Part shown: positions 19,878-63,933 of the stretch, one piece after another
Numbering within the stretch: position 1 is the first letter of the stretch
Layout of the letters: every line of letters begins with the position of its first letter
DNA from: a virus
Direction: 5' to 3' (one strand)
IMG/VR virus record: IMGVR_UViG_3300025093_000009
Span: 32,001 to 96,000 of that record
DNA length: 64,000 bases
The notes under the pieces: model-generated
Database searches by the model: none
Seen by the model: only the letters and a program-made list of their open reading frames with translations
Told to the model about the DNA's origin: nothing
Program-made: the position numbers and the translations under genes

Positions 19878-20444
19878 ATGATCAATAATTTTAAAAAACC
19901 CAATTTAAATGCTCCTAGATACAGAGAGAAAAGACTTGGGTTATTAAATGAGCAAACAATTAAGGAGTTCAAAGACAAAAAACCTTTGTATTCTGATATA
20001 GATAATGTTAAACTAAAAAAGATAATAAAGATATATAATGTAAAACTTTGGAATGCAGTAGTAGATAACAGAGATGGTGTTGAATTACCAGATTCATTAG
20101 GTTATTTATTTATAGGGACTTGTCCCTCTTCTAAATCAGTTAACACTAATTATGCGTTATCAAAAGAGTATGGTAAAGTTTTACAAAATAAAAACTGGGA
20201 AACAGATGGAAATTTAGGAAAGATATTTTATACAAACTACTCAACTAAATATAGATTTAAAAATAGAGAGTTGTGGAGGTTTGTAGCATGTAGGGATTTT
20301 AAAAGAACTGTTGCAAAAAAATATCCTGTTAATTGGACAAAGTACCTAGTTATGAAGAATAAATACAAGGTTGCTCATCTATATGACGAGAATCCTGAAG
20401 AAACCAGCAAAGCATTAGATAAATATAATGAATTTGAAAAATAA
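19878..20444 (+). CDS. IHF/HU-like DNA-binding protein of crAss-like phages
   Basis: Helical N-terminus then GVELPDSLGYLFI (cf. HU V.L.GFG.F) and WRFVACRDFKR; position before tail tubular genes. Confidence 0.65.
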   Translation: MINNFKKPNLNAPRYREKRLGLLNEQTIKEFKDKKPLYSDIDNVKLKKIIKIYNVKLWNAVVDNRDGVELPDSLGYLFIGTCPSSKSVNTNYALSKEYGKVLQNKNWETDGNLGKIFYTNYSTKYRFKNRELWRFVACRDFKRTVAKKYPVNWTKYLVMKNKYKVAHLYDENPEETSKALDKYNEFEK

Positions 20445-20449
20445 AAAAC

Positions 20450-21124
20450 ATGGCAACAATAGCACAAGTAATATCTAGAATAAGAGGTCAAGTAAAAGCT
20501 GAAGTTCAAGATGCTTTTGTGACTGATAGATATATCTATAGCTTGATAGAGAAACATGCCCAGTTTTTAATGAGAAGACAAGACTATGCAAACAAACTAT
20601 TAAAATTTAATTCAGTATGGAAAACACTTCCTTATGTAGAATTAGTTGAGGTAGATAAAGTTGAAGCTCATTGCGCTGGTATACAAAGTGGTTGTACAAT
20701 AAAACGTACAAAGTTAAAGTTACCTTCTATGTTTGAAGGATATTGGGGACCACTTATCCGTACTATTAGTTCAATAGACGGATCTCAAGAATTACAAGCT
20801 ACACAACCCGGTACTTATACATCTATGACAAAAACTACATCATTTAAATATAATAAGACATTATATTTTTGGTGGTTAGATGGTTATATATATTGTCCAA
20901 ATATACAATGGGATGCAATAAAAGTAGAAGGTGTATTTGATTCTGATATTACTAAATGGGACTGTGATACAGAAAATGATTGTACTCCTAGATATGAACA
21001 ACAAATGTATATACCTGAAGCATTATTTGCTGAGATTGAAAGTCAAGTTGTTGCAACAATGATGGGTACATTAAAAATACCATCTGAAGATTCAGATAAC
21101 AAACGTAACCTAGCAAGAACTTAA
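20450..21124 (+). CDS. Tail ring protein
   Basis: 224 aa; between the IHF-like and tail tubular genes. Confidence 0.55.
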   Translation: MATIAQVISRIRGQVKAEVQDAFVTDRYIYSLIEKHAQFLMRRQDYANKLLKFNSVWKTLPYVELVEVDKVEAHCAGIQSGCTIKRTKLKLPSMFEGYWGPLIRTISSIDGSQELQATQPGTYTSMTKTTSFKYNKTLYFWWLDGYIYCPNIQWDAIKVEGVFDSDITKWDCDTENDCTPRYEQQMYIPEALFAEIESQVVATMMGTLKIPSEDSDNKRNLART

Positions 21125-22114: not shown

Positions 22115-25100
22115 ATGGCAAAAAAGAAGAATACTACACCACAACCAAGGGGACAGGGGAGTTCATCAGTAAATACTAATTCATTTACTAAAGGGATGAA
22201 CAAGGATGTAGCACCATCCTTTGAGCAACCAAATGCATGGTGGCATGCAAGAAATGCTGTAAATAATTCAGAAGATGGAGATGTAGGTTTAATTGGTAAT
22301 GAACCATCTAATTTATCTTGTGGTGTAATTCCTTACACTGTAATTGGTGCTATACATAGATATGGAGATGAATGGGTTGTTTTCTCTACAGATGATATTA
22401 ACTCTGAGATAGGGCGTTTTGATGATAGTGAGTGTACATATGAAACACTTGTTAATGACCCTTGTTTAAATTTTAAAAAGAAATATTTAATTACAGGTGC
22501 TGCAAAAGAAAATTTTGATTGTACTTGGGAAGTATACTGGGATGATGCAAACAATCCATCCCGTGCTATGAATATAGATGATATTCCTTGGAAAAAGGTT
22601 AAAATATCAGGGCCGGATGTTAATGGTGATCCTTGTGTTGAATATCAAATTATTGAACCTAAACAATTAGACTGTGAACAAATAAGACTAGCACCACTAC
22701 TTGATACACCTTGTGTAAAATTAAGTAAGGCAACTGATGGTGGTATGATACGCAATGGTACATATCAAGCTTTTGTTGCATATGTAGAAAATGAACAACG
22801 TGTTACAGATTATATAGGTATATCTAATTTGCAGACAATATTTAGTCATGAAGGTGGTAATGGTTCTTTAGATATATCTATAACTAATTTAGATCAAGAT
22901 TACTTTTACTATGAATTAGTTATACTTAGAAGAAACCAAGGTCAAACTTCTGCTAAGAGAATAGGTTTATATAGTACTGAGCAAAGTGATATTAATATTG
23001 ATTTTATAGATGAAGCACTAATACCTATTGATTTAAAGCAAATTCCATTACGTAGCCCAGCATATGAAAAGTCTGAGTCTATGTTTGTAGTTAATGATTG
23101 GTTGATAAGACAAGGACCAACTGAGCAATTTGATTTTAATTATCAACCTATAGCAAATCAAATACAAACTAATTGGGTAGTAAATCAGCTTAGTGCAAAG
23201 TATTATACTTTGGGTGGTAATAAGCTTGGGTTTATGCGTGATGAACAATATGCATTTTTTATTAGATGGATATACAATACGGGTGAAAGATCATCTTCAT
23301 ATCACATTCCTGGTAGAGCTCCTGAGTCATATACATTACCAAATGGAGTATCATATCAAGAAAATGAAATTATAAATGGTGCTAATGTAATAAACACAGA
23401 TGAAGGTGAACCTTTATTTAAAGTTTATAACACTGCTTCATTTACACAAACAAATATAAATGAACCTCAAGAAGATAACTCTTTAGTTATTGCAAGAGGA
23501 AAGATGGGATATTGGGAGTCTACAGAGTTATACCCAAGTAATAGACCAGATATATGGGGAGATTTATGTGGTAAACCAATTAGACATCATAAAATGCCAG
23601 ATGAGTCATTGGGCGGTGCAGATTCTCCATTACATATAAGTACAACAAATGGTGACAATATTAATATTGTTGGGGTTGAGTTTACAAATATTGGTAGACC
23701 AACCAATAATGATGGTACATTCATTGAGAATATTGTTGGTTATGAAATATTAAGAGGTTCTAGACAAGGGGCTAGATCTATACTTGCAAAAGGTATGTTT
23801 AAAAATATGCGTAAGTATAGAATTCCTGACTCTGAAAATATATTGGGAGAATCACAAGGTCTATATCCTAACTATCCATACAACTCATTAGAAGATGATA
23901 TTTTCTTTTTTGACGCAGGTCCAGATCCAAATTCTGAAGATACAAGAACAGGTGGTTGTGATAACTTTACTCAGTCTTTAGATAAGTATCCTCCTTTAAG
24001 TGGTTATACTAAGGATGTATTTACTTTTAGTGCTCCAGACTTAATGTTTACAAAACCATTTTTAAATGCTTATGAAACTAAAATATATGGTAGTATAAAC
24101 GGTAAATCTCAAGGAACGTTTATACCATCTGAGGATCACCCACAATTTAAATTACTAAGACCAGTAGCGGCTAACTTAGCAGCTATTATAGGTTTGGGAT
24201 ATGCTTTGAATGCAGTACAAGGTACTGAGTCAGTAAACACCAAAGCTTTACAAATTAACAACCAAGCATATGCACCATTTATTGGGGTAAGTAGTTCTAC
24301 AGGTTATCCTACTTTTGCAACTGCTGGTGGTGTTAGTTTATCATTATTTGGTTTAATAGAGGGTTTTTTAATAAATAGTTTATTAGATGGTATTACAGAT
24401 GTAGCTGATTTATATAGTGGTGGTGTAGCATCACAAATTAAAAAAGAAGCTATAAATACATCTAACATGATAAAAGCATCAGCAATTCCTGGTGCTTATG
24501 GTGGTGGTAGAGATATGACTTCTACATTTGATAAACCAGAAGGTGCTTTACCTACAGCATTAAAAGTTATTATAAGTATATCTATGGCGCAGAAAAATAT
24601 AGCTATAGGTGCTGGTGAAATAATTGATTTATTTTACAATTTAGTTAGTGAGCATGATTTTGTTTATAAGTATAACTCTACAGGATTTTATAACTCATTT
24701 ACTAAAGTAAATCCAAATAATATTTTTAGAACTAAGAATAATGATTCAAATTATATAGGTTCTTCTTTTCAAACTTTTGATGGGATTAAATATAAAATTA
24801 ATAATTTATTTAGACCATCTACTATTGCTGTATCAACAGCAAATGAACTTGATGATCCAGCAGGACCAAAAGATAATTCTAGATTTAGTCTAGGTGGTAC
24901 AGTAGTTAATGGAGGTACAGTAGACTTTCTTAACTCTTATATGTTAAATCCTAGGTCTGCAGATAGACTTCAAAGAAATATATCTGCATTGTATGGAGCA
25001 TTGAAATTTAATTTTGATAATCAATATGGTCAACTAGATGGTGTAAAGCAAATTATGATGAGGGGTTGTGTGGAACTTATTGATCCAGATAAACCAGAAA

Positions 25101-55133: not shown

Positions 55134-58100
55134 ATGGCAACTTGTTATAACGTAAATGATCCAGCATATATAGCACTAAAAGAGTTTTATGGTACAGACC
55201 TTAAGACTTCTGTTGTTATAGATAGATGGCAGCGTGCAAATAATTCAGATGCTTTTCCTAGTCTTGTCTCAGCAAAAGAAATGACTAGACAAGAAGAGAT
55301 TAGATTTAATTTAAAGCAAAAAGAATTTGGTGAGGCAACGTTAGATAACATTAGAGACAAAAGAATAGGTAGCCGTATTGGTGGTCAGTTTTATATTAAT
55401 AACTCTAACCCACAAACCATGGCTTATCAGGAAAGCTTTTTAGAGAATAATTTAAAAAGATTTTACAGGTACCTAGAGATAAATAATATACCACAAGATG
55501 CATTTACTGTAACAAGAACACCAAAGTCATACAGGGTGGATGTTAACCCAGGTATGTTTACAGCAACAGATATTATAGAAAAATCTAGATCATGGGATAT
55601 GCCTAGATCCAGACAGGTTGTTATGCACCTTAAAAGGTTATTTCCACAGATTAATGTGAAGCTACTATCTGTAACAGAAGCACGTGCTCTTTATGCACAA
55701 ATACCAAACTGGAGAAAGACTGATGTACCTTTTACTGAGGTGAATTCTTTTTACTATAATGGTGTTGCCTATCTTATAAAAGGTAGAGTTACAGATGAAA
55801 TTGCTATTGAAGAAATGTTGCATCCGTTTATTGATGCAATAAAAGTAGAAAACGAAGAGCTGTTTAATAATTTATTAGATGAAGCAAAAAAGAATTTTCC
55901 TGAGTTAACTCAGCAAATTGAGCAAGCATATAATAAAAAGAGAAGCTTTAGTGAAACTGCAAGGGATCTTGAAATTGTAACACAAGCATTAACAAGACAC
56001 TTCAAAAAAGAGTATGAAACACAACCAACCAAATCATTTTTAGATGTCATTAAAAAGGCACTTGAATGGTTTATGGGTATTATAGATAACTTTAATAAAT
56101 ATCTTACAGGAAGACCATTAGAGGTTAGTGACATCAAAGCGGATACAAACTTCTCTGACATAGCTAAATTACTAAACACAGAGGGTATTCAATTTAAATT
56201 AAATAAAAGAGTTGACGGTGCCGTTAGATATAACCTTACACCAAAGAAAGCAAAACAAGTTAAAGATGCAATAGCAAGAGCACCAAAGGGTTCAAAGCAA
56301 AGAGCCACTATAGAATCTATGTTTAATGTTGCACAAGAAACAACAGATGAAGTAGATTCATTATCTGCAAGTGCTAAAGAAGGTGGTAGTATTGTTGTGT
56401 TAGATGAGAAGACACACACTTATCAAAATATCACTGATAAAAAAACATATGCGTCTGTTACTACTGTAATCAAAGGGACAATGAGCCCTGAAAGACAAAA
56501 AGAAGTAGCAATAAATTTAGAGATAGGTAATGCAGTTGATCAATTATTAGATAGTGAAATTGCAGGTTTAACATTTGAAGAAGCTTATGAAGCACTTGAC
56601 ACAGACCTTATAAGCAAAGAGGTTGCTGAAAAAGTGTATAATGATCTTTCTAGTACAATGGAGAACATGAGAAGAAAGGATAGTATTATTCTTTCTCAGG
56701 TAGTTTTATTTGATGAGAAATCTGGTATTGCAGGTACTGCAGATATTGTAATTGTTGACCGCCATGGTGTGATTAAAATTATGGATCTTAAGACTACTAA
56801 GAACTCTTTAAGTAAAATGGTAAAGAGTCAAGATGGTAGAGGTCTAGTTAGACAATATGATGTAGCATATCCACTTGCAGATGACAGCGTTTTAAAACAA
56901 AAAGGTTTAAGAACAGAGCTTTCTACAGCAGGACAACATAATCTACAGGTCAACCTTTATAGAAGGATGGCAGAAAATATGGGTTATGAAGTAGACTACT
57001 ATGATGAATGGGGTGCTGCCACAATACACTATAATGTTGGAATAGAAGGAAAAGGTGTTGATCAAACTTTCAATGGAGAAATTGCTTTTGATAGATTTGT
57101 ACCACATCCACCCAGCATGTTTCAGGATATTATAGATGAACTTATTCCACCTAATAGAAATTCTGCAAATAGAAGAAGATTAGATGAGGAGTCTAAAGAT
57201 GATCCTAATGCTGTTTGGAATGGTAAAGATTATCAAGACACTACAACTGAATCTGATAAAGAAGACGCTAAAGATTATACAGAATATAATATAGCTGCGG
57301 GTATGCTTAATGATTATCAGAGAGCATTAATTAGTAGAAGAGAAGCAATTGAAACTCTTAAGAAGCCTGTGTTTTCTTTATTAAGTAAGGATAAAGAAAT
57401 AGAGCAAATATCTAAAACAATAGCATATATAAGTATTGCTATGAGTCAAGGGCCACAAGGTCAAAGTGTAGCTTTAGCAGAATTGTTACAGGATGCACTT
57501 AAACAAATAAGGCAGTTTAAAGAATATATAGAAGATCCTAAAAATGTTGATGATCCTAACTATATAACATATTTGTTAGGTTTTGATAGGTTTAAAACAA
57601 CGTTTGAAGGATTGCATAGTCTTAAATCTTTTGAAGGATTAAACAGTACACAAGTAAGTTTAATTGCTACTATTCAAGCTAACTTAAATCAACTTGGTGG
57701 TACAAAAAGTTCACCAGGTATAGTAGATCAGCAGATTGATTACTTTGTAATGGAAATGATTAAAAAGTATTCTAAAAATGATTTTGGTGGAGAAGGTAGT
57801 TATTTTACTGAGCAAGATCTAAAAGACATTATGAAAAGGGTGCCTGATATTTCTGATACAGAATATCAAACAAAAGATATGGCAACGTCTCCAGATCTTT
57901 TACTTGCAACAATGGATAAGATACGTAAATATCAAAAGCAGGTTTTATTAGATAAGATTGCTGATAGAGAAAGAATGATTAGAACAACAGCTCAAAGGCT
58001 GTTAAAACTTGATCCTGGTACAAAAAAGGAAGATCTATTTAATTTTATGTTGACTTTTGATGAAGACGGTCAATTTTCAGGCAACTATGTTAAGAAGATA

Positions 58101-60911
58101 GGTAAACAATATTGGGATAAGCAATTTGAATTACGTGCTGTATTGTATGATAATGAAGGAAACCCTTATGAATATAGAGAAGTATTTGATGAAGCAACTG
58201 CATCTGCAGAAGACTTAGCTTATAATCAAGATCTTGCAAATAAAAGAAGAGCATATAGCAACTTCTTTAGAGCTGAGACAAAGGATGAAAACGGTAAACT
58301 TGTTGATGGTGAATATCATAGGTATACTGAAGATTTTAAAAGAGCTAGGGAAAAGTTTGAATTTTGGTCACCAGGCTCTGAAGCAAATGAGCATGGTTAT
58401 TGGCAAGTAAAACCAGGAGTTTCACCTGCTGCTTATGCTGCTTATGAAGCTAAATATTATGACCGCATAAATTATACTAAAGCTATAAGAGTTGGTGGTC
58501 AACCAACAGGTGCAATTGAAAAAGATTCAAACTTTATGGCTGTGAAGCCTGAATATAGACAGACTAGAGAGATGTCATCTAAAGGAGAAGACATGACAAG
58601 CGAACAGTATAGAGCTATAATGAATGATACATCTGCTTTAGGTGTAGCAAGAAAAGACTTCTATGAAATGTTTGTTGACATGTATGAGAATGACCTACTC
58701 AAGAAACTACCTATTGGCGTTTCAGCACAAATGACAGGTAGAGTTCCATTAGTTAGAGCTAAATTCTTAAATGAGCTACAAAAGAAAGATGGTGTTTGGA
58801 ATAAACTATATGGTAGTATAGCTAGTAGTAGGGCTATGAATACATTTAAGAAAACATCTACAGTAAAGAATGTTCTATTAGATGAACAAGGATACATTGT
58901 TGACCAAATGCCTGTGTTCTATACAGGGTCTCCAAGAGCAGATGGTCAGATGGCCGAACTACAAAAAGAAATAGATTATGTAAAGTCTCAATGGAAGAAA
59001 GGTGCAATTAAAACAAAAGAGGAGTATGACACAAAGATAAAAGATCTAAACGGAAGAATGCTACGTTTAGAGTCATCACCTACAAGAGGAGAGATTAGTA
59101 AAGATATGGCTAGTAGTCTTCTTAAGTTTAGTGCTATGGCAGAAAACTATGAGACAATGGGTGCTGTAGATGATACATTGGAAGCCTTTGTTAAAGTTAT
59201 AGAAAATAGAACATATGATCCACCGGTAGGTACAGGTTTAAGTCTTATGGGTAAGATCAAAGATGGAGTTAGACGAAAGGTTGGTAGAAAAGGAAACAAA
59301 TCTACTCAAGATGCTAATGTTGTAAGAAGAGCTAAAAAGTTTATGTCTATGATTCATTATGATAATGAACTAGTGACTAAAGGAGCTATGGATAAAATAG
59401 CAGATGGTCTTATACAATTGTCTTCTTTATCATATGTAGCATTTAACCCATTTGGTAACTTTAATAACTACTTGATTGGTAGACTTAATAATAATATTGA
59501 AGCTATTGGTGGTAGATTTTATACGCAAAAGAGTTTCAGAAGAGCTACATGGGAGTTTAATAAAAGAGCAATACCTTCTTTAGTAGAGAGAACATCTTAT
59601 GGAGGAGCAGAAGACTTACTTGATGTTGCAACCTTTGGTGTAATCCCTGGTCTAGGTAAATCTGATTATGATCCTAAAAAACCTAATAACAAATATGAAG
59701 CTTTTGTAGATGGTTTAAGAATGATGGACCCAATGACTGACATCCGTGAACAATCATCAGCTACTTCTGATGGTAAAAGTTGGTTTGCTAGAGCATCTGA
59801 ATGGGGTTATGTTATGCAGGATGCTGCGGAATACAACTCACAAACTAAAGTTGGTACGGCCATTTTAATAGATACTATGATTATTAATGAAGAGACTGGT
59901 GAAACAATATCTTACTATGATGCATTTCAATATGATGCTGCTACTCATTCAAATAAATTAAGACCAGACTTTAGTCAAGAAACATATGGTGATAAGATTA
60001 AGATTAAGTATTTCAGAGGTAGAACAGAAACTTATTCAAGAAAAGCTGATTATGAGTTAAGACAAACAATCCGTGAAGTCAACAAACAAATTCATGGTAA
60101 CTATGCTAAAGAAGATAGAGTTGTATTACAGAGTCATACTCTTGGTAATCTAGCAATACAATTTAAGAAGTGGGTTGCTCCAGCAATTAGAGCAAGATAT
60201 CAAAGAGAATACTTTGACCAAAACCTTGGTTGGATGGAAGGTAGATATAGATCTGCCCTAAGCTTTTTGAACTATGCCAAAAGAGAATTGATGAGAGGTA
60301 ACATGGCGTTTAGAGAGTACGGTAAAGGATTCTTAGATGCTCAAGTTAATGCCTATAGTATGGAGAAGTTTGGTACATCAAGAAGTTTTGGAGAAGGAGG
60401 TAATATGGATCAACGAGCAGAAAATAAACTGTTTGGTTTCTATAGAACCATGGGAGACTTAACTATTATGTTTAGTACATTGTTTACTACAATGCTATTT
60501 GATATGATTATTACTGATGATGATGATGATAGTGACTTTGAGAAGAGAATGAAAAACTTTACAAGATATACTGCTCAGAGAGCTTATAAAGAAATTGTAG
60601 TATTCATGCCTTCACCTGAAGGGTTTAATCAAGTTGATCAAATGTTAAACTCTCCAATTGCAGCAATGAGATCTGTAACTGAAATGGCAGAGTTCTTAGA
60701 AATGTTTATTATAGGTAATTTAAGATATACATATTCTAAGGTAAGTGGTAATGAAGAAAAATTCTTAGCAAACTCAGATTATGTTTATCAAAGAGGTGAT
60801 AAAAAAGGTGAGTTTAAAGTTTGGAAGAACTTCAAAGATGTATTCCCTATAGTTTATTCAATTCAAAAGTGGAATTCTTACTTAGAAAATGATGACTTCT
60901 ATATTAAATAA
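55134..60911 (+). CDS. Large virion protein with degenerate zincin-like and PD-(D/E)xK nuclease domains
   Basis: EEMLHPF (55809-55829); THTY..SVTTVI, GIAGTADIV..IMDLKT and QHNLQVNLY. Confidence 0.75.
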   Translation: MATCYNVNDPAYIALKEFYGTDLKTSVVIDRWQRANNSDAFPSLVSAKEMTRQEEIRFNLKQKEFGEATLDNIRDKRIGSRIGGQFYINNSNPQTMAYQESFLENNLKRFYRYLEINNIPQDAFTVTRTPKSYRVDVNPGMFTATDIIEKSRSWDMPRSRQVVMHLKRLFPQINVKLLSVTEARALYAQIPNWRKTDVPFTEVNSFYYNGVAYLIKGRVTDEIAIEEMLHPFIDAIKVENEELFNNLLDEAKKNFPELTQQIEQAYNKKRSFSETARDLEIVTQALTRHFKKEYETQPTKSFLDVIKKALEWFMGIIDNFNKYLTGRPLEVSDIKADTNFSDIAKLLNTEGIQFKLNKRVDGAVRYNLTPKKAKQVKDAIARAPKGSKQRATIESMFNVAQETTDEVDSLSASAKEGGSIVVLDEKTHTYQNITDKKTYASVTTVIKGTMSPERQKEVAINLEIGNAVDQLLDSEIAGLTFEEAYEALDTDLISKEVAEKVYNDLSSTMENMRRKDSIILSQVVLFDEKSGIAGTADIVIVDRHGVIKIMDLKTTKNSLSKMVKSQDGRGLVRQYDVAYPLADDSVLKQKGLRTELSTAGQHNLQVNLYRRMAENMGYEVDYYDEWGAATIHYNVGIEGKGVDQTFNGEIAFDRFVPHPPSMFQDIIDELIPPNRNSANRRRLDEESKDDPNAVWNGKDYQDTTTESDKEDAKDYTEYNIAAGMLNDYQRALISRREAIETLKKPVFSLLSKDKEIEQISKTIAYISIAMSQGPQGQSVALAELLQDALKQIRQFKEYIEDPKNVDDPNYITYLLGFDRFKTTFEGLHSLKSFEGLNSTQVSLIATIQANLNQLGGTKSSPGIVDQQIDYFVMEMIKKYSKNDFGGEGSYFTEQDLKDIMKRVPDISDTEYQTKDMATSPDLLLATMDKIRKYQKQVLLDKIADRERMIRTTAQRLLKLDPGTKKEDLFNFMLTFDEDGQFSGNYVKKIGKQYWDKQFELRAVLYDNEGNPYEYREVFDEATASAEDLAYNQDLANKRRAYSNFFRAETKDENGKLVDGEYHRYTEDFKRAREKFEFWSPGSEANEHGYWQVKPGVSPAAYAAYEAKYYDRINYTKAIRVGGQPTGAIEKDSNFMAVKPEYRQTREMSSKGEDMTSEQYRAIMNDTSALGVARKDFYEMFVDMYENDLLKKLPIGVSAQMTGRVPLVRAKFLNELQKKDGVWNKLYGSIASSRAMNTFKKTSTVKNVLLDEQGYIVDQMPVFYTGSPRADGQMAELQKEIDYVKSQWKKGAIKTKEEYDTKIKDLNGRMLRLESSPTRGEISKDMASSLLKFSAMAENYETMGAVDDTLEAFVKVIENRTYDPPVGTGLSLMGKIKDGVRRKVGRKGNKSTQDANVVRRAKKFMSMIHYDNELVTKGAMDKIADGLIQLSSLSYVAFNPFGNFNNYLIGRLNNNIEAIGGRFYTQKSFRRATWEFNKRAIPSLVERTSYGGAEDLLDVATFGVIPGLGKSDYDPKKPNNKYEAFVDGLRMMDPMTDIREQSSATSDGKSWFARASEWGYVMQDAAEYNSQTKVGTAILIDTMIINEETGETISYYDAFQYDAATHSNKLRPDFSQETYGDKIKIKYFRGRTETYSRKADYELRQTIREVNKQIHGNYAKEDRVVLQSHTLGNLAIQFKKWVAPAIRARYQREYFDQNLGWMEGRYRSALSFLNYAKRELMRGNMAFREYGKGFLDAQVNAYSMEKFGTSRSFGEGGNMDQRAENKLFGFYRTMGDLTIMFSTLFTTMLFDMIITDDDDDSDFEKRMKNFTRYTAQRAYKEIVVFMPSPEGFNQVDQMLNSPIAAMRSVTEMAEFLEMFIIGNLRYTYSKVSGNEEKFLANSDYVYQRGDKKGEFKVWKNFKDVFPIVYSIQKWNSYLENDDFYIK

Positions 60912-61006
60912 GACAAATTTACAGGTGTAATTCTTTTCTGTTTAAATAAGAATAGTTATATTATAGTATAAACCAACAGTAATAGACTATAACTTAAAAT
61001 TTAAAT

Positions 61007-62188
61007 ATGAAAAGATATTTAATTCTGTTGGTTCTTTTCCTGTCATCATATGCTGTAAATGCCCAAGGTTTCTTTGACTCTCTTTACAAAGATTTCTTAA
61101 AATTTGGGACTGTATATGGTGCTGGTGATATTAGTAACTCAATAGAAGCATCTGAGCCAACTTATTTTGTTAGAACCAATCCCAATGGTAGTATATATGA
61201 TATACCCGTTGTAGAAGATAATACACCTCAATACCCATTTGATTATAGATTAGGCTTTGGTATACGTAAACTAGCTAGGTTTAATTATGAAAGAAAACCT
61301 AGAAACTTTTATGATGGTACTGAGACACAACTTGCTTTTACAGCACCAACTTCAGCATTTCAAGGATTAGAATATCAACTACACTATGAGAAAGAAAGGT
61401 GGAGAGGGGAGCACTTTGATAATAATAGATACTTTGTAAAACACACAGGTAAGTATCATATAGTTAAAGCTGAGTCAAGAGAAGTAGGTAAGATCAACTT
61501 AAAGTATCAATCAGCAGAAGCAAGACTAAGGTTGCCTATAGGTAAGAAGTTTAGTATATCTGGCGGTGCAATCTACCGTACTCATGACCGTGCTTATGGA
61601 TATAATCCAATTGAGATCTGGTTAAATGAAACTGATGAGGATGGGTTTGCAGTAAACCCTTGGTACACTTTAGGTTTTATATATGGGTATGATGATATAT
61701 TCTATACTGAAGAAGATGAAAATGGTAATGAAGTAAATGATTGGTATTGGATAGATCCAGATGGAAACAGAGTTGCAGATACAGATTTAGAATTTAGAGA
61801 AACAATCTTTAGAGATTTAATGAATAGATATAATAGAGAAGCATGGTCAACTCTAGATAGATTTGGTGAGATTGCTCCTATAGTAGGATTTGATTATTAT
61901 CATTATAAAAACAATTTCTGGTTGCATGCCTATGCTAACTGGATTCTTCCTTATCATAAGTATATACAGGGGGATGAGCAGTGTTCTTATTTAAATAGAA
62001 ACAATTGGGGTAAAGGAGGTTTAATTGAAGACTCACAATTTGAACAGTGGTCTGATTATTCTTTTGGTGCAAACTTGGGATGGAAGGTAGGAAAACACCT
62101 TGGTGTGTTTATAGAGGGAGAATATGCAAAGATGTGGGATAGTGAACTATTCAATACATCTTTTGGACTTAATTATACATTTAGATAA
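61007..62188 (+). CDS. Predicted outer-membrane beta-barrel protein
   Basis: Sec signal (…YAVNA|Q); alternating amphipathic strands rich in Y/F/W/G; C-terminal FGLNYTFR beta-signal-like end. Confidence 0.7.
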   Translation: MKRYLILLVLFLSSYAVNAQGFFDSLYKDFLKFGTVYGAGDISNSIEASEPTYFVRTNPNGSIYDIPVVEDNTPQYPFDYRLGFGIRKLARFNYERKPRNFYDGTETQLAFTAPTSAFQGLEYQLHYEKERWRGEHFDNNRYFVKHTGKYHIVKAESREVGKINLKYQSAEARLRLPIGKKFSISGGAIYRTHDRAYGYNPIEIWLNETDEDGFAVNPWYTLGFIYGYDDIFYTEEDENGNEVNDWYWIDPDGNRVADTDLEFRETIFRDLMNRYNREAWSTLDRFGEIAPIVGFDYYHYKNNFWLHAYANWILPYHKYIQGDEQCSYLNRNNWGKGGLIEDSQFEQWSDYSFGANLGWKVGKHLGVFIEGEYAKMWDSELFNTSFGLNYTFR

Positions 62189-62189
62189 A

Positions 62190-62594
62190 ATGAAACAGAA
62201 AACAAACGAAGAGATATTAGCTAAAATAGAAATAGATAAAATTGAGGCTAAGAGCACAGCAAAAGAAATAGCATCAAAGCATTTAGGCAAGCATGCTATA
62301 AATTATATAACAGTATTAGTTGTAATAGGTGTAATAAGTTCTACAGCTTTAGAAGGTGGGGCACTAACAGCAGTTATTGGTTTAGTATCTACAGCAGCAA
62401 TGGCACTGATAGGTATATTACAACATATAGTAGGTGCAAAAGAAAAAGAAGAAAAGCCTGAATTAGAAATAATTAAAAGCTTAATTAGAGAGTTATCTGA
62501 TAAAGAAGATGATCCAATGCAGGTAGAAGTAACTGACTCAGATGTAACAGTTACAAAAGGTGAAAGCAAAGTAACAGCAAGTAAAAAGAAATAA
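62190..62594 (+). CDS. Two-TM inner-membrane protein
   Basis: Start reassigned to ATG 62190, just after the upstream stop; TMs YITVLVVIGVISS and LTAVIGLVSTAAMALIGIL. Confidence 0.65.
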   Translation: MKQKTNEEILAKIEIDKIEAKSTAKEIASKHLGKHAINYITVLVVIGVISSTALEGGALTAVIGLVSTAAMALIGILQHIVGAKEKEEKPELEIIKSLIRELSDKEDDPMQVEVTDSDVTVTKGESKVTASKKK

Positions 62595-62595
62595 G

Positions 62596-62886
62596 ATGGC
62601 ACAGACACCCCCACAGATAGGAGAGCAAACAAAAGTAACTTTAGATCTAAAAACTATAGGTATGATTGTGGGCTTTGTAATTTCATTATCAACTATGTGG
62701 TTTACACTTAAAGCTGATATTGCATTAGCTATGGAGAGACCAGAACCTGTTATTGAAAGAGTAGAATATGATTTAAAAGACGAATTAGTAAGAGAAACAA
62801 TAATGACCACCCAACAAGATGTTGAAGAGATTAAAGCAACGCTAGCCAAAATGGAGGAGCGTTTATATGAACTTAGCAAAAAGTAG
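62596..62886 (+). CDS. Single-TM protein with C-terminal coiled coil
   Basis: IGMIVGFVISLSTMWF TM; QQDVEEIKATLAKMEERLYEL heptads. Confidence 0.7.
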   Translation: MAQTPPQIGEQTKVTLDLKTIGMIVGFVISLSTMWFTLKADIALAMERPEPVIERVEYDLKDELVRETIMTTQQDVEEIKATLAKMEERLYELSKK

Positions 62887-62888
62887 TC

Positions 62889-63290
62889 ATGAAAACATTC
62901 CTACTCACACTGATAACTCTACTAGTAACAACGGCTTTACATGGTCAATCTTGGGTTACAGATGAGACAATAAATGATGCAATTTCTAGTCATTCTGGTT
63001 TTGATGATCATGATGAAATTGTAATTATAGAGTTCTATGCAGAATTCAATAAAGATAACGCATTTAAAGACAGAGAAAAACTATCCGGTGTAACATATTA
63101 TATGTGTGATGTAGCACAGGCACCACAATCTAAAAAACAATATAAAATAAGAATGGCACCAACCATTCTTGTATTTTTAGACGGGTCTGTTGTATTGCAA
63201 TACAAAGCAGGACTAGACTTACAGTGTCCAGTTACTTTAGCTGAGCTAGAAAAAAGCATTGCTGAGGTACAAAAAGAATCTCAATTCTAA
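62889..63290 (+). CDS. Exported thioredoxin-fold protein lacking CxxC
   Basis: Signal (…ALHG|Q); IVIIEFYAEFN in place of V.DF.A.WCxxC; YKIRMAPTILVFLDG cis-Pro strand. Confidence 0.7.
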   Translation: MKTFLLTLITLLVTTALHGQSWVTDETINDAISSHSGFDDHDEIVIIEFYAEFNKDNAFKDREKLSGVTYYMCDVAQAPQSKKQYKIRMAPTILVFLDGSVVLQYKAGLDLQCPVTLAELEKSIAEVQKESQF

Positions 63291-63306
63291 AAACAATCAA
63301 TAATAA

Positions 63307-63933
63307 ATGCAAAACATACTTTTCACCCTGGCATTCCTGCTTCCGGTATGCCTCTCCTCTTCACAAATATCAACTTGTGATGTAGAACTTCTCAACCTTG
63401 ATTGGGATGCAAAACAAATAACCTTAACTCTTAATGATAATAATTGTATAAGTACTCCTGACTGGGTGCCTACAAATGATTCAGTTTATGCAATACAAAT
63501 GTTCTTTTCATTTGATGGTTATAACTGTAGTATAGCATCTAACAACAATAATTTTTTACCAAACCTTGGTCTAAATGATACCACCACCTATTCTATATCA
63601 GAGTGGGCTGATGCATTTAATTGTTTTGACTCAGCATTTGAACACTATATTGAAACGTGTGAAGCTGTAGTTGGTGTAACTGGTGCAAATAATACAATCA
63701 ACATAGACGCAAATGGCAGTAATAACTACATAGGTTATAATCCTATATGGGATAACTGCTATGAAACTGTGTCTGTAGTTGAGGTAAATAAGAAAACCCT
63801 GCATACCATATATGATAGACAGGGTAATCTTATACTAGAAACTTATGATATTCCTTGGTCAGAGATGCAAGGTTTATACTTGATCAAGCAAGATAATATC
63901 ATTTCTAAACACTTTGTTTCTGAAAGAAATTAA
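63307..63933 (+). CDS. Secreted protein with T9SS (Por) C-terminal sorting domain-like tail
   Basis: Signal (…LSSS|Q); C-terminus SVVE...IYDRQGNLI...GLYLIK...SKHFV. Confidence 0.55.
   Translation: MQNILFTLAFLLPVCLSSSQISTCDVELLNLDWDAKQITLTLNDNNCISTPDWVPTNDSVYAIQMFFSFDGYNCSIASNNNNFLPNLGLNDTTTYSISEWADAFNCFDSAFEHYIETCEAVVGVTGANNTINIDANGSNNYIGYNPIWDNCYETVSVVEVNKKTLHTIYDRQGNLILETYDIPWSEMQGLYLIKQDNIISKHFVSERN

What the first reader, a model, noticed from the sequence alone, without database searches (positions are those of the whole stretch)
61007..63933. Phage-encoded five-gene cell-envelope module: OM beta-barrel, two IM proteins, redox-dead thioredoxin and T9SS-type cargo
Seen: a tight operon (gaps of 1-16 nt) after a promoter-like TATATTA at 60957. 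It encodes a predicted OM barrel with a long acidic loop (DEDG...EEDENG...DPDG), a 2-TM protein, a 1-TM coiled-coil protein, an exported Trx fold without CxxC, and a secreted Cys-containing protein. All three signal peptides appear to end before Gln, which fits the Bacteroidota Q-rule. These are not virion or classical lysis genes (no lipobox, no endolysin). Inference: a trans-envelope complex built in the infected cell for superinfection exclusion, nutrient/metal uptake, surface remodelling, or a non-canonical spanin function. I know of no characterised system with this make-up.
Basis: partly seen in the sequence, partly recalled or inferred. Interest (0 to 1): 0.8.

Follow-up and report, generated by a model that had tools for sequence, protein, structure and literature searches.

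The report
Outer-membrane barrel trio in phage lysis cassettes
An uncultured marine phage that probably infects Flavobacteria carries three always-linked genes (an outer-membrane barrel, an inner-membrane coiled-coil protein and a cysteine-free exported thioredoxin) that in most relatives sit beside the cell-wall-cutting enzyme, so they may be an undescribed way of breaking the host's outer membrane, though nothing has been tested.

Summary
The five ORFs exist as described, with gaps of 1, 1, 2 and 16 nt. g1 is a roughly 12-stranded outer-membrane beta-barrel. g4 has a classical thioredoxin fold without CxxC.

The conserved unit is three genes, not five. g1, g3 and g4 are linked in all 66 related loci with enough DNA, including relatives only about 31% identical in g1. 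g2 (two TM segments, holin-like) and g5 are variable add-ons. The T9SS claim for g5 got no HMM support.

Relatives say otherwise: in 44 of 60 loci one of three unrelated endolysin types lies within 2.5 kb downstream on the same strand, or within 1 kb upstream, and recognisable holins are sometimes present.

In this genome the trio is detached. The only stand-alone endolysin-type gene lies 70 kb away.

Best reading (about 0.4): an envelope-spanning device that breaches the outer membrane at lysis. A barrel would replace the usual o-spanin lipoprotein, as Kongari et al. speculated in 2018. This is inferred from context only.

No homologue was found in 50,697 GenBank phages, and no Pfam, PHROG or NCBIfam family matched g1.

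This scan has already flagged and followed up the same trio on other DNA, with the same reading. Those notes are not independent evidence.

The parts
60912..61006 (+). 95-nt intergenic region before g1.
   Evidence: Sequence. The sigma-70-type scan found no promoter-like site on the + strand in this gap. AAACAAGT[AG]AT lies 25-35 nt before the g1 ATG in at least 18 of 71 non-redundant loci, but the degenerate box is not enriched genome-wide. Promoter status is open.
61007..62188 (+). g1: exported 393-aa outer-membrane beta-barrel with about 12 strands. It has a short N-terminal helix, one long conserved basic turn predicted to face the periplasm (residues 84-104) and a 92-aa acidic loop predicted to face outward (194-285).
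   Evidence: ORF. AF2 model with pLDDT 78 and pTM 0.67. All top PDB matches are outer-membrane barrels, for example EstA Z 10.7, TamA, PgaA, KdgM, OmpG, LpxR and OMPLA. More than 2,500 homologue clusters, all unnamed. No Pfam, PHROG or NCBIfam family. Conservation map.
62190..62594 (+). g2: 134-aa protein with two TM segments and a long charged C-terminal tail. Its layout is holin-like. It is a variable insert in the g1|g3 slot.
   Evidence: Hydropathy. The only homologue among the related loci is in L042 (92% identity, same slot). Family matches are weak only.
62596..62886 (+). g3: 96-aa single-pass inner-membrane protein, probably N-in/C-out, with a very conserved acidic helical C-terminal domain of about 55 aa.
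   Evidence: ORF and alignment A3. K+R in the N-flank exceeds the C-flank in 45 of 56 distinct homologues and is never lower; the C-domain net charge averages -7. It follows g1 in 64 of 66 loci. It has only weak PHROG matches of unknown function.
62889..63290 (+). g4: exported 133-aa thioredoxin-fold protein without CxxC. E-F-N-x-x-N, RMAPT (the cis-Pro loop) and KAGLDL are invariant.
   Evidence: Pfam PF00085 at E 3.6e-5. Alignment A2. AF2 pLDDT 86.5. Foldseek top hits are classical thioredoxins, TM 0.72-0.77 normalised to the target.
63307..63933 (+). g5: exported 208-aa protein with six invariant Cys. It is a small mobile family and not part of the conserved unit. Its C-terminal 50 aa only loosely resemble the end of a T9SS sorting domain.
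   Evidence: About 20 homologue clusters, none annotated. Alignment A4. No Por_Secre_tail hit in 13 members. Absent next to the trio in 80 loci. The L081 homologue sits in another context. The nearest ESM cluster scores 0.83, which is a lead only.

Best explanation
g1, g3 and g4 are a conserved three-gene unit of the lysis region of a large group of uncultured marine phages. The hosts are probably Flavobacteriia or other Bacteroidota.

Shown: the three products are addressed to the outer membrane (g1, a roughly 12-stranded barrel), the inner membrane (g3, one TM segment) and the periplasm (g4, a thioredoxin fold without redox cysteines). They are always linked, usually 1-5 nt apart. In most relatives they lie directly beside the endolysin gene.

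Inferred: they form a bridge across the periplasm. g3 would be anchored N-in/C-out in the inner membrane. Its acidic helical domain, alone or through the acidic g4 adaptor, would reach the conserved basic periplasmic turn of g1. Once holin and endolysin have removed the cell wall, this bridge would destroy or fuse the outer membrane. That is the job spanins do in other phages, with a barrel in place of the o-spanin lipoprotein.

In this genome, g2 is a holin-like insert and g5 is an unrelated secreted add-on. The trio has been separated from the endolysin gene.
For: Linkage:
- 147 of 148 IMG/VR candidate stretches encode g1 relatives.
- g3 and g4 follow g1 in 64 of 66 loci with at least 2.5 kb after g1. 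The other two loci also hold both genes within 4 kb.
- The trio persists in relatives only 31-33% identical in g1 (L087, L088, L090).

Lysis context:
- Peptidase_M15_3 (Pfam E 8e-14; phrog_894 endolysin, E 2e-29) occurs in 36 loci.
- A phrog_33083 endolysin-type protein occurs in 5 loci.
- PG_binding_1+Amidase_2 occurs in 3 loci.
- All of these lie within 2.5 kb downstream or 1 kb upstream, on the same strand, in 44 of 60 loci.
- Phage_holin_4_1 (above Pfam's cut-off) and a borderline GTA_holin_3TM match lie nearby in some loci.
- M15_3 distances track g1 distances (r 0.74 over 42 loci).

Compartments:
- g1 barrel.
- g3 topology by the positive-inside rule.
- g4 thioredoxin fold with a signal peptide.

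Possible interface:
- The most conserved 12-mer of g1 is residues 84-95 (net charge +4 over residues 85-104). It lies at the only long predicted periplasmic turn.
- The g3 C-domain has net charge -5 to -9.

No ordinary spanin pair:
- In the 116-kb genome, g3 is the only protein with an N-terminal TM segment followed by a soluble domain. No adjacent lipoprotein partner exists.

Literature:
- Kongari et al. 2018 list Bacteroides and Croceibacter phages as spanin-less and state that 'an OMP could act as an o-spanin' (PMC6139136).
- Flavobacterial phages mostly lack recognised spanins (PMC8776804).
Against: - No function, interaction or expression timing has been measured. The role rests on gene neighbourhood.
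- In this genome the only stand-alone endolysin-type gene (G000 22170-23093; Pfam) lies 70 kb away. 16 of 60 related loci also have no endolysin within 2.5 kb.
- The periplasmic part of g3 is only about 55 aa. Even with g4 it is short for spanning a periplasm.
- g3 has no cysteine. Most two-component spanins rely on periplasmic disulfides (PMC6139136).
- A barrel cannot easily be drawn into a fusion pore the way a lipid anchor can.
- Some cassettes also hold lipoproteins, including 61- and 72-aa proteins with a lipobox plus a C-terminal TM segment. These could be the real outer-membrane-breaching factors.
- In L016, L044 and L051, g3 is the only membrane protein near the endolysin, which fits a holin role for g3 equally well.
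- The loci are related, so the counts are not independent events.
Confidence: 0.4

Rival explanations
1. g3 is the holin or an antiholin or other timing factor of these phages. g1 and g4 are accessory regulators or unrelated passengers.
For: In L016, L044 and L051 the M15_3 endolysin has no signal or TM segment, and g3 is the only inner-membrane protein within about 3.5 kb. g3 is small, has one TM segment and has a charged tail, as some holins do.
Against: Many cassettes carry separate holin-type genes: Phage_holin_4_1, a borderline GTA_holin_3TM match, small proteins with two TM segments, and g2 in this window. In g3 the soluble domain is the best conserved part and the TM segment is the most variable, which is the reverse of what pore formation would need. 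This reading does not explain the strict linkage to an exported barrel and an exported thioredoxin.
Confidence: 0.15
2. The trio remodels the surface of the infected cell. It could exclude superinfecting phages, mask the receptor, or stop progeny from sticking to debris (like T5 Llp or lambda Lom/Bor). It would sit near the lysis genes only because late accessory genes collect there.
For: Phage-encoded outer-membrane proteins of known role are mostly of this kind (established knowledge for lambda Lom/Bor and T5 Llp). The neighbourhood is a hot spot for variable exported proteins and lipoproteins. In this genome the trio is not next to the endolysin.
Against: The trio is a universal, slowly evolving core of a very large phage group. 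More than 2,500 g1 clusters exist, and the trio is kept down to 31% identity. That is unlike patchy moron genes. This reading gives no role to an inner-membrane coiled-coil protein and a thioredoxin-like partner. The trio is co-inherited with the endolysin.
Confidence: 0.15
3. g1 acts on its own as an outer-membrane enzyme or pore. It could be a lipid-cleaving barrel like OMPLA, LpxR or PagL, or a channel opened at lysis. g4 would be its periplasmic chaperone and g3 a membrane tether or regulator.
For: The 12-stranded barrel enzymes LpxR (Z 9.3) and OMPLA (Z 9.1) are among the structural matches. g1 keeps nearly invariant polar residues, including E122, H193, H307, D350 and E370. Redox-dead thioredoxin folds often serve as binding modules (general knowledge).
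Against: The matches are at fold-class level only. Dozens of unrelated barrels score alike. No catalytic motif of OMPLA, LpxR or PagL was identified.
Confidence: 0.15
4. One reading: all five genes build one complex, including a cargo protein exported by the host type IX secretion system.
For: The five genes are tightly packed on one strand. The g5 C-terminus shows a loose [IV]YD..G / G.Y.I / K.F pattern. The nearest ESM cluster carries Por_Secre_tail, with a score of 0.83.
Against: g2 occurs in 1 and g5 in 0 of 80 related loci. The g5 homologue in L081 stands in an unrelated context. There is no Por_Secre_tail or TIGR04183 hit in g5 or in 12 homologues at E up to 10. An ESM score of 0.83 is reached by a third of shuffled proteins.
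Confidence: 0.05

Closest known systems
Two-component spanins (lambda Rz/Rz1, T4 PseT.3/PseT.2, T7 gp18.5/18.7; Kongari et al. 2018, PMC6139136)
   Same: An inner-membrane protein with an N-terminal TM segment and a helical periplasmic domain is encoded next to an outer-membrane partner, within or beside the holin-endolysin cassette. The products together cover both membranes.
   Different: The outer-membrane partner is a 393-aa beta-barrel, not a small lipoprotein. A third, periplasmic thioredoxin-fold subunit is always present. g3 is short (94-97 aa) and has no cysteine. There is no sequence similarity to any spanin family. Function is untested.
Unimolecular spanin (T1 gp11 type)
   Same: It is an alternative, non-Rz solution to outer-membrane disruption encoded in lysis cassettes. 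Small proteins with a lipobox plus a C-terminal TM segment do occur in or near these cassettes (L006-L009; G000 20262-20480).
   Different: The trio is three separate proteins and none is lipidated. The small lipobox-plus-TM proteins have only 24-33 aa between their anchors and occur in few loci.
Disruptin (phage phiKT gp28, bioRxiv 10.1101/515445)
   Same: It is another route to outer-membrane disruption in spanin-less phages and is encoded in the lysis region.
   Different: gp28 is a small cationic amphipathic peptide. Nothing like it is in the trio.
Classical thioredoxin (TrxA; Pfam PF00085)
   Same: g4 shares the fold (TM 0.72-0.77 to solved thioredoxins) and keeps the cis-proline loop.
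   Different: g4 has no CxxC (an invariant E-F-N-x-x-N stands in its place). It has a signal peptide, so it is exported. It is phage-specific and always linked to g1 and g3.
12-stranded outer-membrane barrels (autotransporter beta-domains EstA/NalP, NanC/KdgM porins, OMPLA, LpxR)
   Same: The fold class and approximate strand number match. g1 also has an N-terminal helix before strand 1, as in autotransporter barrels.
   Different: g1 has no passenger domain, no family-level sequence match and no identified catalytic motif. It has a 92-aa acidic loop with Dx[DN]xNG-type turns and a long conserved periplasmic turn.

Membership tests
Two-component spanin | i-spanin: inner-membrane protein with an N-terminal TM segment, N-in/C-out, and a helical or coiled-coil periplasmic domain | tested here: met
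   g3 has one N-terminal hydrophobic segment. K+R in the N-flank exceeds the C-flank in 45 of 56 homologues and is never lower. The helical heptad-like C-domain was judged by inspection of A3. Topology is predicted, not measured.
Two-component spanin | o-spanin: small outer-membrane lipoprotein with a lipobox Cys | tested here: not met
   g1 and g4 have type I signal peptides that end before Gln and have no lipobox. g1 is a 393-aa barrel.
Two-component spanin | The two genes are adjacent, overlapping or embedded and lie in the lysis cassette | tested here: inconclusive
   g1 and g3 are adjacent in most loci. An endolysin lies within 2.5 kb in 44 of 60 relatives. In this genome the endolysin-type gene is 70 kb away.
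Two-component spanin | Periplasmic cysteines that form intermolecular disulfides (absent in about 4% of known spanins) | tested here: not met
   g3 has no Cys. The g4 cysteines are not conserved.
Two-component spanin | Required for outer-membrane disruption; loss gives spherical unlysed cells | not testable with these tools
   No cultured member: g1, g3 and g4 have no hit in 50,697 GenBank phage records.
Outer-membrane beta-barrel protein | Sec signal peptide, closed antiparallel barrel, C-terminal beta-signal ending in an aromatic residue | tested here: met
   The signal peptide is conserved. There are about 12 long strands. All 50 best PDB matches are outer-membrane-type barrels. The C-terminus is G-[LI]-N-Y-x-[FL] followed by K or R.
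Thioredoxin (PF00085) | Thioredoxin fold with a cis-Pro loop | tested here: met
   Pfam score of 24.1 bits against a cut-off of 23.5. AF2 and Foldseek results. RMAPT is invariant.
Thioredoxin (PF00085) | Redox-active CxxC motif | tested here: not met
   It is replaced by an invariant E-F-N-x-x-N in 28 aligned sequences.
T9SS cargo (type A C-terminal domain, PF18962 / TIGR04183) | C-terminal sorting domain of 70-100 aa recognised by the family models | tested here: inconclusive
   There is no hit at E up to 10 for g5, its C-terminal fragment or 12 homologues. A loose motif resemblance and an ESM lead at 0.83 remain. HMMER's filters drop weak matches.
Holin (two-TM type), for g2 | Small protein with two TM segments and a charged cytoplasmic C-tail, encoded in the lysis cassette and lethal on induction | tested here: inconclusive
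   g2 has two hydrophobic segments and a Lys/Glu-rich tail. There is no holin family hit. Function was not tested.

The most novel reading that the evidence does not exclude
g1-g3-g4 is a new class of phage device for disrupting the outer membrane. It would be a three-part, barrel-anchored functional equivalent of spanins, used by a very abundant group of marine Bacteroidota phages. That would explain how spanin-less phages of this phylum complete lysis.
Probability: 0.35. Interest if true: 0.85.

Novelty: new variant of a known kind. Interest (0 to 1): 0.7.

Why it matters
How phages without recognisable spanins get through the outer membrane is an open question. About 13% of the surveyed phages of Gram-negative hosts have none, including Bacteroides and Croceibacter phages (PMC6139136). 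Only one alternative, the phiKT disruptin, has been shown.

This trio is a concrete and widespread candidate. It has more than 2,500 protein clusters, found in ocean viromes on contigs up to about 125 kb, and its architecture matches what was only speculated in 2018.

If it works as proposed, three things would follow. It would add a new mechanism to the lysis pathway. It would give an annotation to thousands of 'hypothetical' marine virus genes. It would show a new use of a redox-dead thioredoxin fold.

If it does something else, it is still a conserved, phage-specific trans-envelope unit of unknown role.

Tried and rejected
- Similarity of the 3.1-kb region by DNA, and of g1, g3 and g4 by protein, to 50,697 GenBank phages: no match.
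- Pfam, PHROGs and NCBIfam on the five proteins: only the thioredoxin hit is meaningful.
I read the neighbourhoods of distant homologues from related-loci loci instead.
- Cellular homologues of g1: the scan of 185,579 species genomes gave 12 hits. All are on contigs of metagenome bins with mutually inconsistent taxonomy, so they are most likely phage contigs. The scan used only one peptide pattern, so its sensitivity is limited.
- Specific barrel family for g1: Foldseek and VIA-align give fold-class matches only.
- A catalytic reading of g1 could not be checked because model coordinates are not exposed to scripts.
- A shared promoter box: AAACAAGT[AG]AT recurs before g1 in one sub-clade but is not enriched genome-wide. 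The sigma-70 scan is at background level.
- Mirror-tree test for special co-evolution within the trio: the correlations (0.67-0.73) are no higher than those with the endolysin (0.55-0.74). This shows co-inheritance of the cassette, not a specific interaction.
- T9SS sorting domain in g5: negative by HMM in 13 family members.
- The GTA_holin_3TM-like protein of this genome (window 69482-69943) is 44% identical to a borderline Pfam match in L091, but it gave no Pfam hit itself.
Full report
**What is there**

The window is bases 32001-96000 of a single 116,157-bp contig with about 33% G+C. The contig is a phage genome. It encodes distant major-head, tail-fibre and virion-protein matches and giant proteins of 1,925, 2,052 and 4,567 aa on one long + strand operon. 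Its capsid-like protein is only 23-28% identical to proteins of Leptolyngbya, Cellulophaga and a crAss-type gut phage.

The five ORFs of the finding close this operon, and the strand switches after them:

| Gene | Coordinates | Length |
|---|---|---|
| g1 | 61007-62188 | 393 aa |
| g2 | 62190-62594 | 134 aa |
| g3 | 62596-62886 | 96 aa |
| g4 | 62889-63290 | 133 aa |
| g5 | 63307-63933 | 208 aa |

The gaps are 1, 1, 2 and 16 nt. For g2, the start at 62190 matches its homologue in L042.

**The proteins**

*g1*
- It has a signal peptide.
- Folded with a 34-sequence alignment that reaches down to 25% identity, it gives a model with pLDDT 78. The model has about 12 long strands, an N-terminal helix and one large loop (residues 194-285) that carries the acidic D/E/N-G motifs.
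- All top PDB matches by Foldseek and by the independent VIA-align search are outer-membrane barrels. Examples are EstA (Z 10.7), BamA/TamA, PgaA, KdgM, OmpG, NanC, LpxR and OMPLA. No particular family stands out.
- No Pfam, PHROG or NCBIfam model matches.

*g4*
- It matches Pfam Thioredoxin just above the cut-off.
- It folds with pLDDT 86.5 into a classical thioredoxin.
- In 28 aligned sequences the CxxC is replaced by an invariant E-F-N-x-x-N. The cis-Pro loop (RMAPT) and a KAGLDL motif are invariant. The cysteines are not conserved.

*g3*
- It has one N-terminal hydrophobic segment.
- Its C-terminal domain of about 55 aa is the best conserved part of the protein. The domain is helical and acidic.
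- Positive charges favour an N-in/C-out topology: the N-flank has more K+R than the C-flank in 45 of 56 distinct homologues and never fewer.

*g2*
- It has two hydrophobic segments and a long Lys/Glu-rich tail, a holin-like layout.

*g5*
- It is an exported protein with six invariant cysteines.

*Host inference*
- A small residue followed by Gln lies at the expected end of the signal peptide in 65 of 67 g1 and 57 of 57 g4 homologues.
- This fits the Bacteroidetes Q-rule (PMC5837995, PMC10653852) and so a Bacteroidota host.
- The few metagenome bins with plausible labels are Flavobacteriaceae, Flavobacteriales or Bacteroidetes.

**The conserved unit is three genes**

g1 has at least 147 relatives in IMG/VR and more than 2,500 clusters in the large protein collection. 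All are unnamed, and the contigs reach about 125 kb.
- Among loci with at least 2.5 kb after g1, 64 of 66 have g3 and then g4 directly downstream, mostly 1-5 nt apart.
- In the other two, L032 simply overlaps, and L091 has g3 and g4 within 4 kb upstream.
- The trio persists in lineages where g1 is only 31-33% identical (L087, L088, L090).
- g2 occurs in one locus (L042) and g5 in none.
- The only IMG/VR relative of g5 stands in an unrelated neighbourhood.

The space between g1 and g3 is a variable slot. Depending on the locus, it holds one of the following:
- g2;
- a g3 paralogue;
- a lipoprotein of about 185 aa;
- a 61-aa protein with a lipobox and a C-terminal TM segment;
- small basic proteins.

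**Context in relatives: a lysis cassette**

I clustered the neighbours of the trio across the loci and scanned representatives.

| Neighbour | Family evidence | Loci |
|---|---|---|
| 153-aa Peptidase_M15_3 | Pfam E 8e-14; phrog_894 'endolysin' E 2e-29 | 36 |
| 201-aa protein | phrog_33083 'endolysin' and phrog_3000 | 5 |
| PG_binding_1+Amidase_2 enzyme | Pfam | 3 |

- Together, 44 of 60 loci with enough DNA have a cell-wall hydrolase within 2.5 kb downstream or 1 kb upstream, on the same strand. In L084 the hydrolase is immediately upstream.
- Phage_holin_4_1 (above Pfam's cut-off), a borderline GTA_holin_3TM match and small proteins with two TM segments occur nearby.
- In L015 the order is: small two-TM protein, g1, g3, g4, amidase, holin-family protein.
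- Three non-homologous endolysin types in the same slot is the usual mosaic pattern of lysis cassettes.
- Among 42 loci, distances of the M15_3 enzyme track those of g1 (r 0.74). The enzyme is as conserved as the trio, so the high conservation of the trio is not unusual for this cassette.

**This genome differs**

- The only stand-alone endolysin-type gene (PG_binding_1+Amidase_2) lies at G000 22170-23093, 70 kb upstream.
- A protein 44% identical to the borderline GTA_holin_3TM match of L091 lies 6 kb downstream, outside the window. It has no Pfam hit of its own.
- The closest relatives (L003, L023, L043) share this detached layout.
- For this window, therefore, the lysis assignment rests on homology and on synteny elsewhere.

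**How it most likely works**

*Shown.* Three products are addressed to three envelope compartments. They are strictly co-inherited and tightly spaced. Most relatives place them beside endolysin and holin genes.

*Inferred.* The three products form a periplasm-spanning complex that breaches the outer membrane after the wall is degraded. That makes the complex a functional equivalent of spanins.

Supporting details:
- The most conserved stretch of g1 (residues 84-95, basic) sits at the end of strand 2 and the start of the only long turn that the strand order places in the periplasm. The C-domain of g3 and mature g4 are acidic.
- In the complete genome, g3 is the only protein with an N-terminal TM segment followed by a soluble domain. 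No lipoprotein gene lies next to it.
- Kongari et al. 2018 found no spanins in 91 of 677 phages, among them Bacteroides and Croceibacter phages. They wrote that 'an OMP could act as an o-spanin' (PMC6139136).
- A survey of flavobacterial phages reports few spanins (PMC8776804).
- My literature searches found no description of a barrel in this role.

*Weak points*
- Nothing has been measured.
- The periplasmic part of g3 is short.
- g3 has no cysteine.
- A barrel is an awkward fusion anchor.
- Lipoproteins occur in some cassettes and could be the real outer-membrane factors. They include a 72-aa protein with a lipobox plus a C-terminal TM segment near this genome's amidase.
- In L016, L044 and L051, g3 is the only membrane protein near the endolysin, so a holin role for g3 cannot be excluded.
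- The loci are related, so the counts are not independent events.

I put the lysis-region membership of the trio at about 0.85 and the spanin-like mechanism at about 0.4.

**Rivals**

- g3 as holin or antiholin (0.15).
- Surface remodelling, exclusion or protection of progeny (0.15).
- g1 as an outer-membrane enzyme or pore with g4 as its chaperone (0.15). LpxR and OMPLA are among the fold matches, but only at fold-class level.
- The original five-gene complex with a T9SS cargo (0.05).

On the T9SS point, neither g5, its C-terminal fragment nor 12 homologues hit Por_Secre_tail or TIGR04183 at E up to 10. A loose motif resemblance and an ESM neighbour at 0.83, a score that a third of shuffled proteins reach, leave it a weak lead.

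**Comparison with known systems and novelty**

- The trio works most like a two-component spanin but fails defining features of that family. It has no lipoprotein and no periplasmic cysteines, and it has a third subunit. It should not be filed as a spanin.
- g4 has the thioredoxin fold but lacks the defining CxxC.
- g1 is an outer-membrane barrel of no known family. One predicted viral structure (BFVD A0A516LKJ4, 23% identity, E 2.5e-28) is a structural twin without a name.
- I rate the trio a new variant of a known kind: a lysis-cassette component for the outer-membrane step.

**Earlier notes of this scan**

After I had reached this reading, the scan's index showed that the same trio had been flagged by first readers on at least seven other genomes. 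It had been followed up on three (e1-5743116, e1-5992573, e1-3290243) with the same conclusion. These are AI notes on related DNA and are not independent evidence. They show that the scan has found this before.

Noticed in passing
window 63930-64133 (- strand): A 67-aa ORF with a lipoprotein signal (lipobox ...LTFAS|C). It converges on g5 and overlaps the g5 stop codon by 4 nt. No homologue search was done.
   Followed up: no
G000 20262-20480 (11.7 kb before the window start); L006-L009 in the g1|g3 slot: Proteins of 72 aa and 61 aa with an N-terminal lipobox and a C-terminal TM segment, a layout like a unimolecular spanin. Only 24-33 residues separate the two anchors. The 72-aa gene lies 1.7 kb upstream of this genome's PG_binding_1+Amidase_2 gene.
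   Followed up: partly
L022, L026, L031, L033, L034, L035, L043, between g1 and g3: A lipoprotein of about 185 aa whose lipidated Cys is followed by D/S/E-K-D/E/N-D/E. This resembles the Bacteroidota signal for surface export of lipoproteins. It has no Pfam or PHROG family.
   Followed up: partly
L064, L075 and 10 other loci directly after the M15_3 endolysin; L036 overlapping the start of g3: A lipoprotein of about 142 aa with a proline-rich C-terminus. It is often translationally coupled to the endolysin gene. In L036 it overlaps g3 by 32 nt, so it is a possible conventional o-spanin-like partner in a subset of cassettes.
   Followed up: partly
window about 60974-60985; upstream of g1 in L002, L010, L011, L016, L017, L052-L057, L060-L062, L065, L072-L077, L087: The box AAACAAGT[AG]AT lies 25-35 nt before the g1 start codon in at least 18 of 71 non-redundant loci. 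This genome has the variant CAACAGTAATAG. The degenerate box is not enriched genome-wide.
   Followed up: partly
window 63147-63172, inside g4: A 10-bp inverted repeat followed by a T-run scores as terminator-like on both strands. It lies within the codons of the conserved RMAPT loop.
   Followed up: no
L001, L004, L005: Three IMG/VR contigs from different samples all end at the same point inside g1 (residue 319). This suggests a recurrent assembly break or a genome end there.
   Followed up: no
window 55134-60911: The 1,925-aa protein just upstream of g1 has an exonuclease-type (phrog_298) segment at residues 418-632. It is replaced by unrelated large proteins in most related loci.
   Followed up: no
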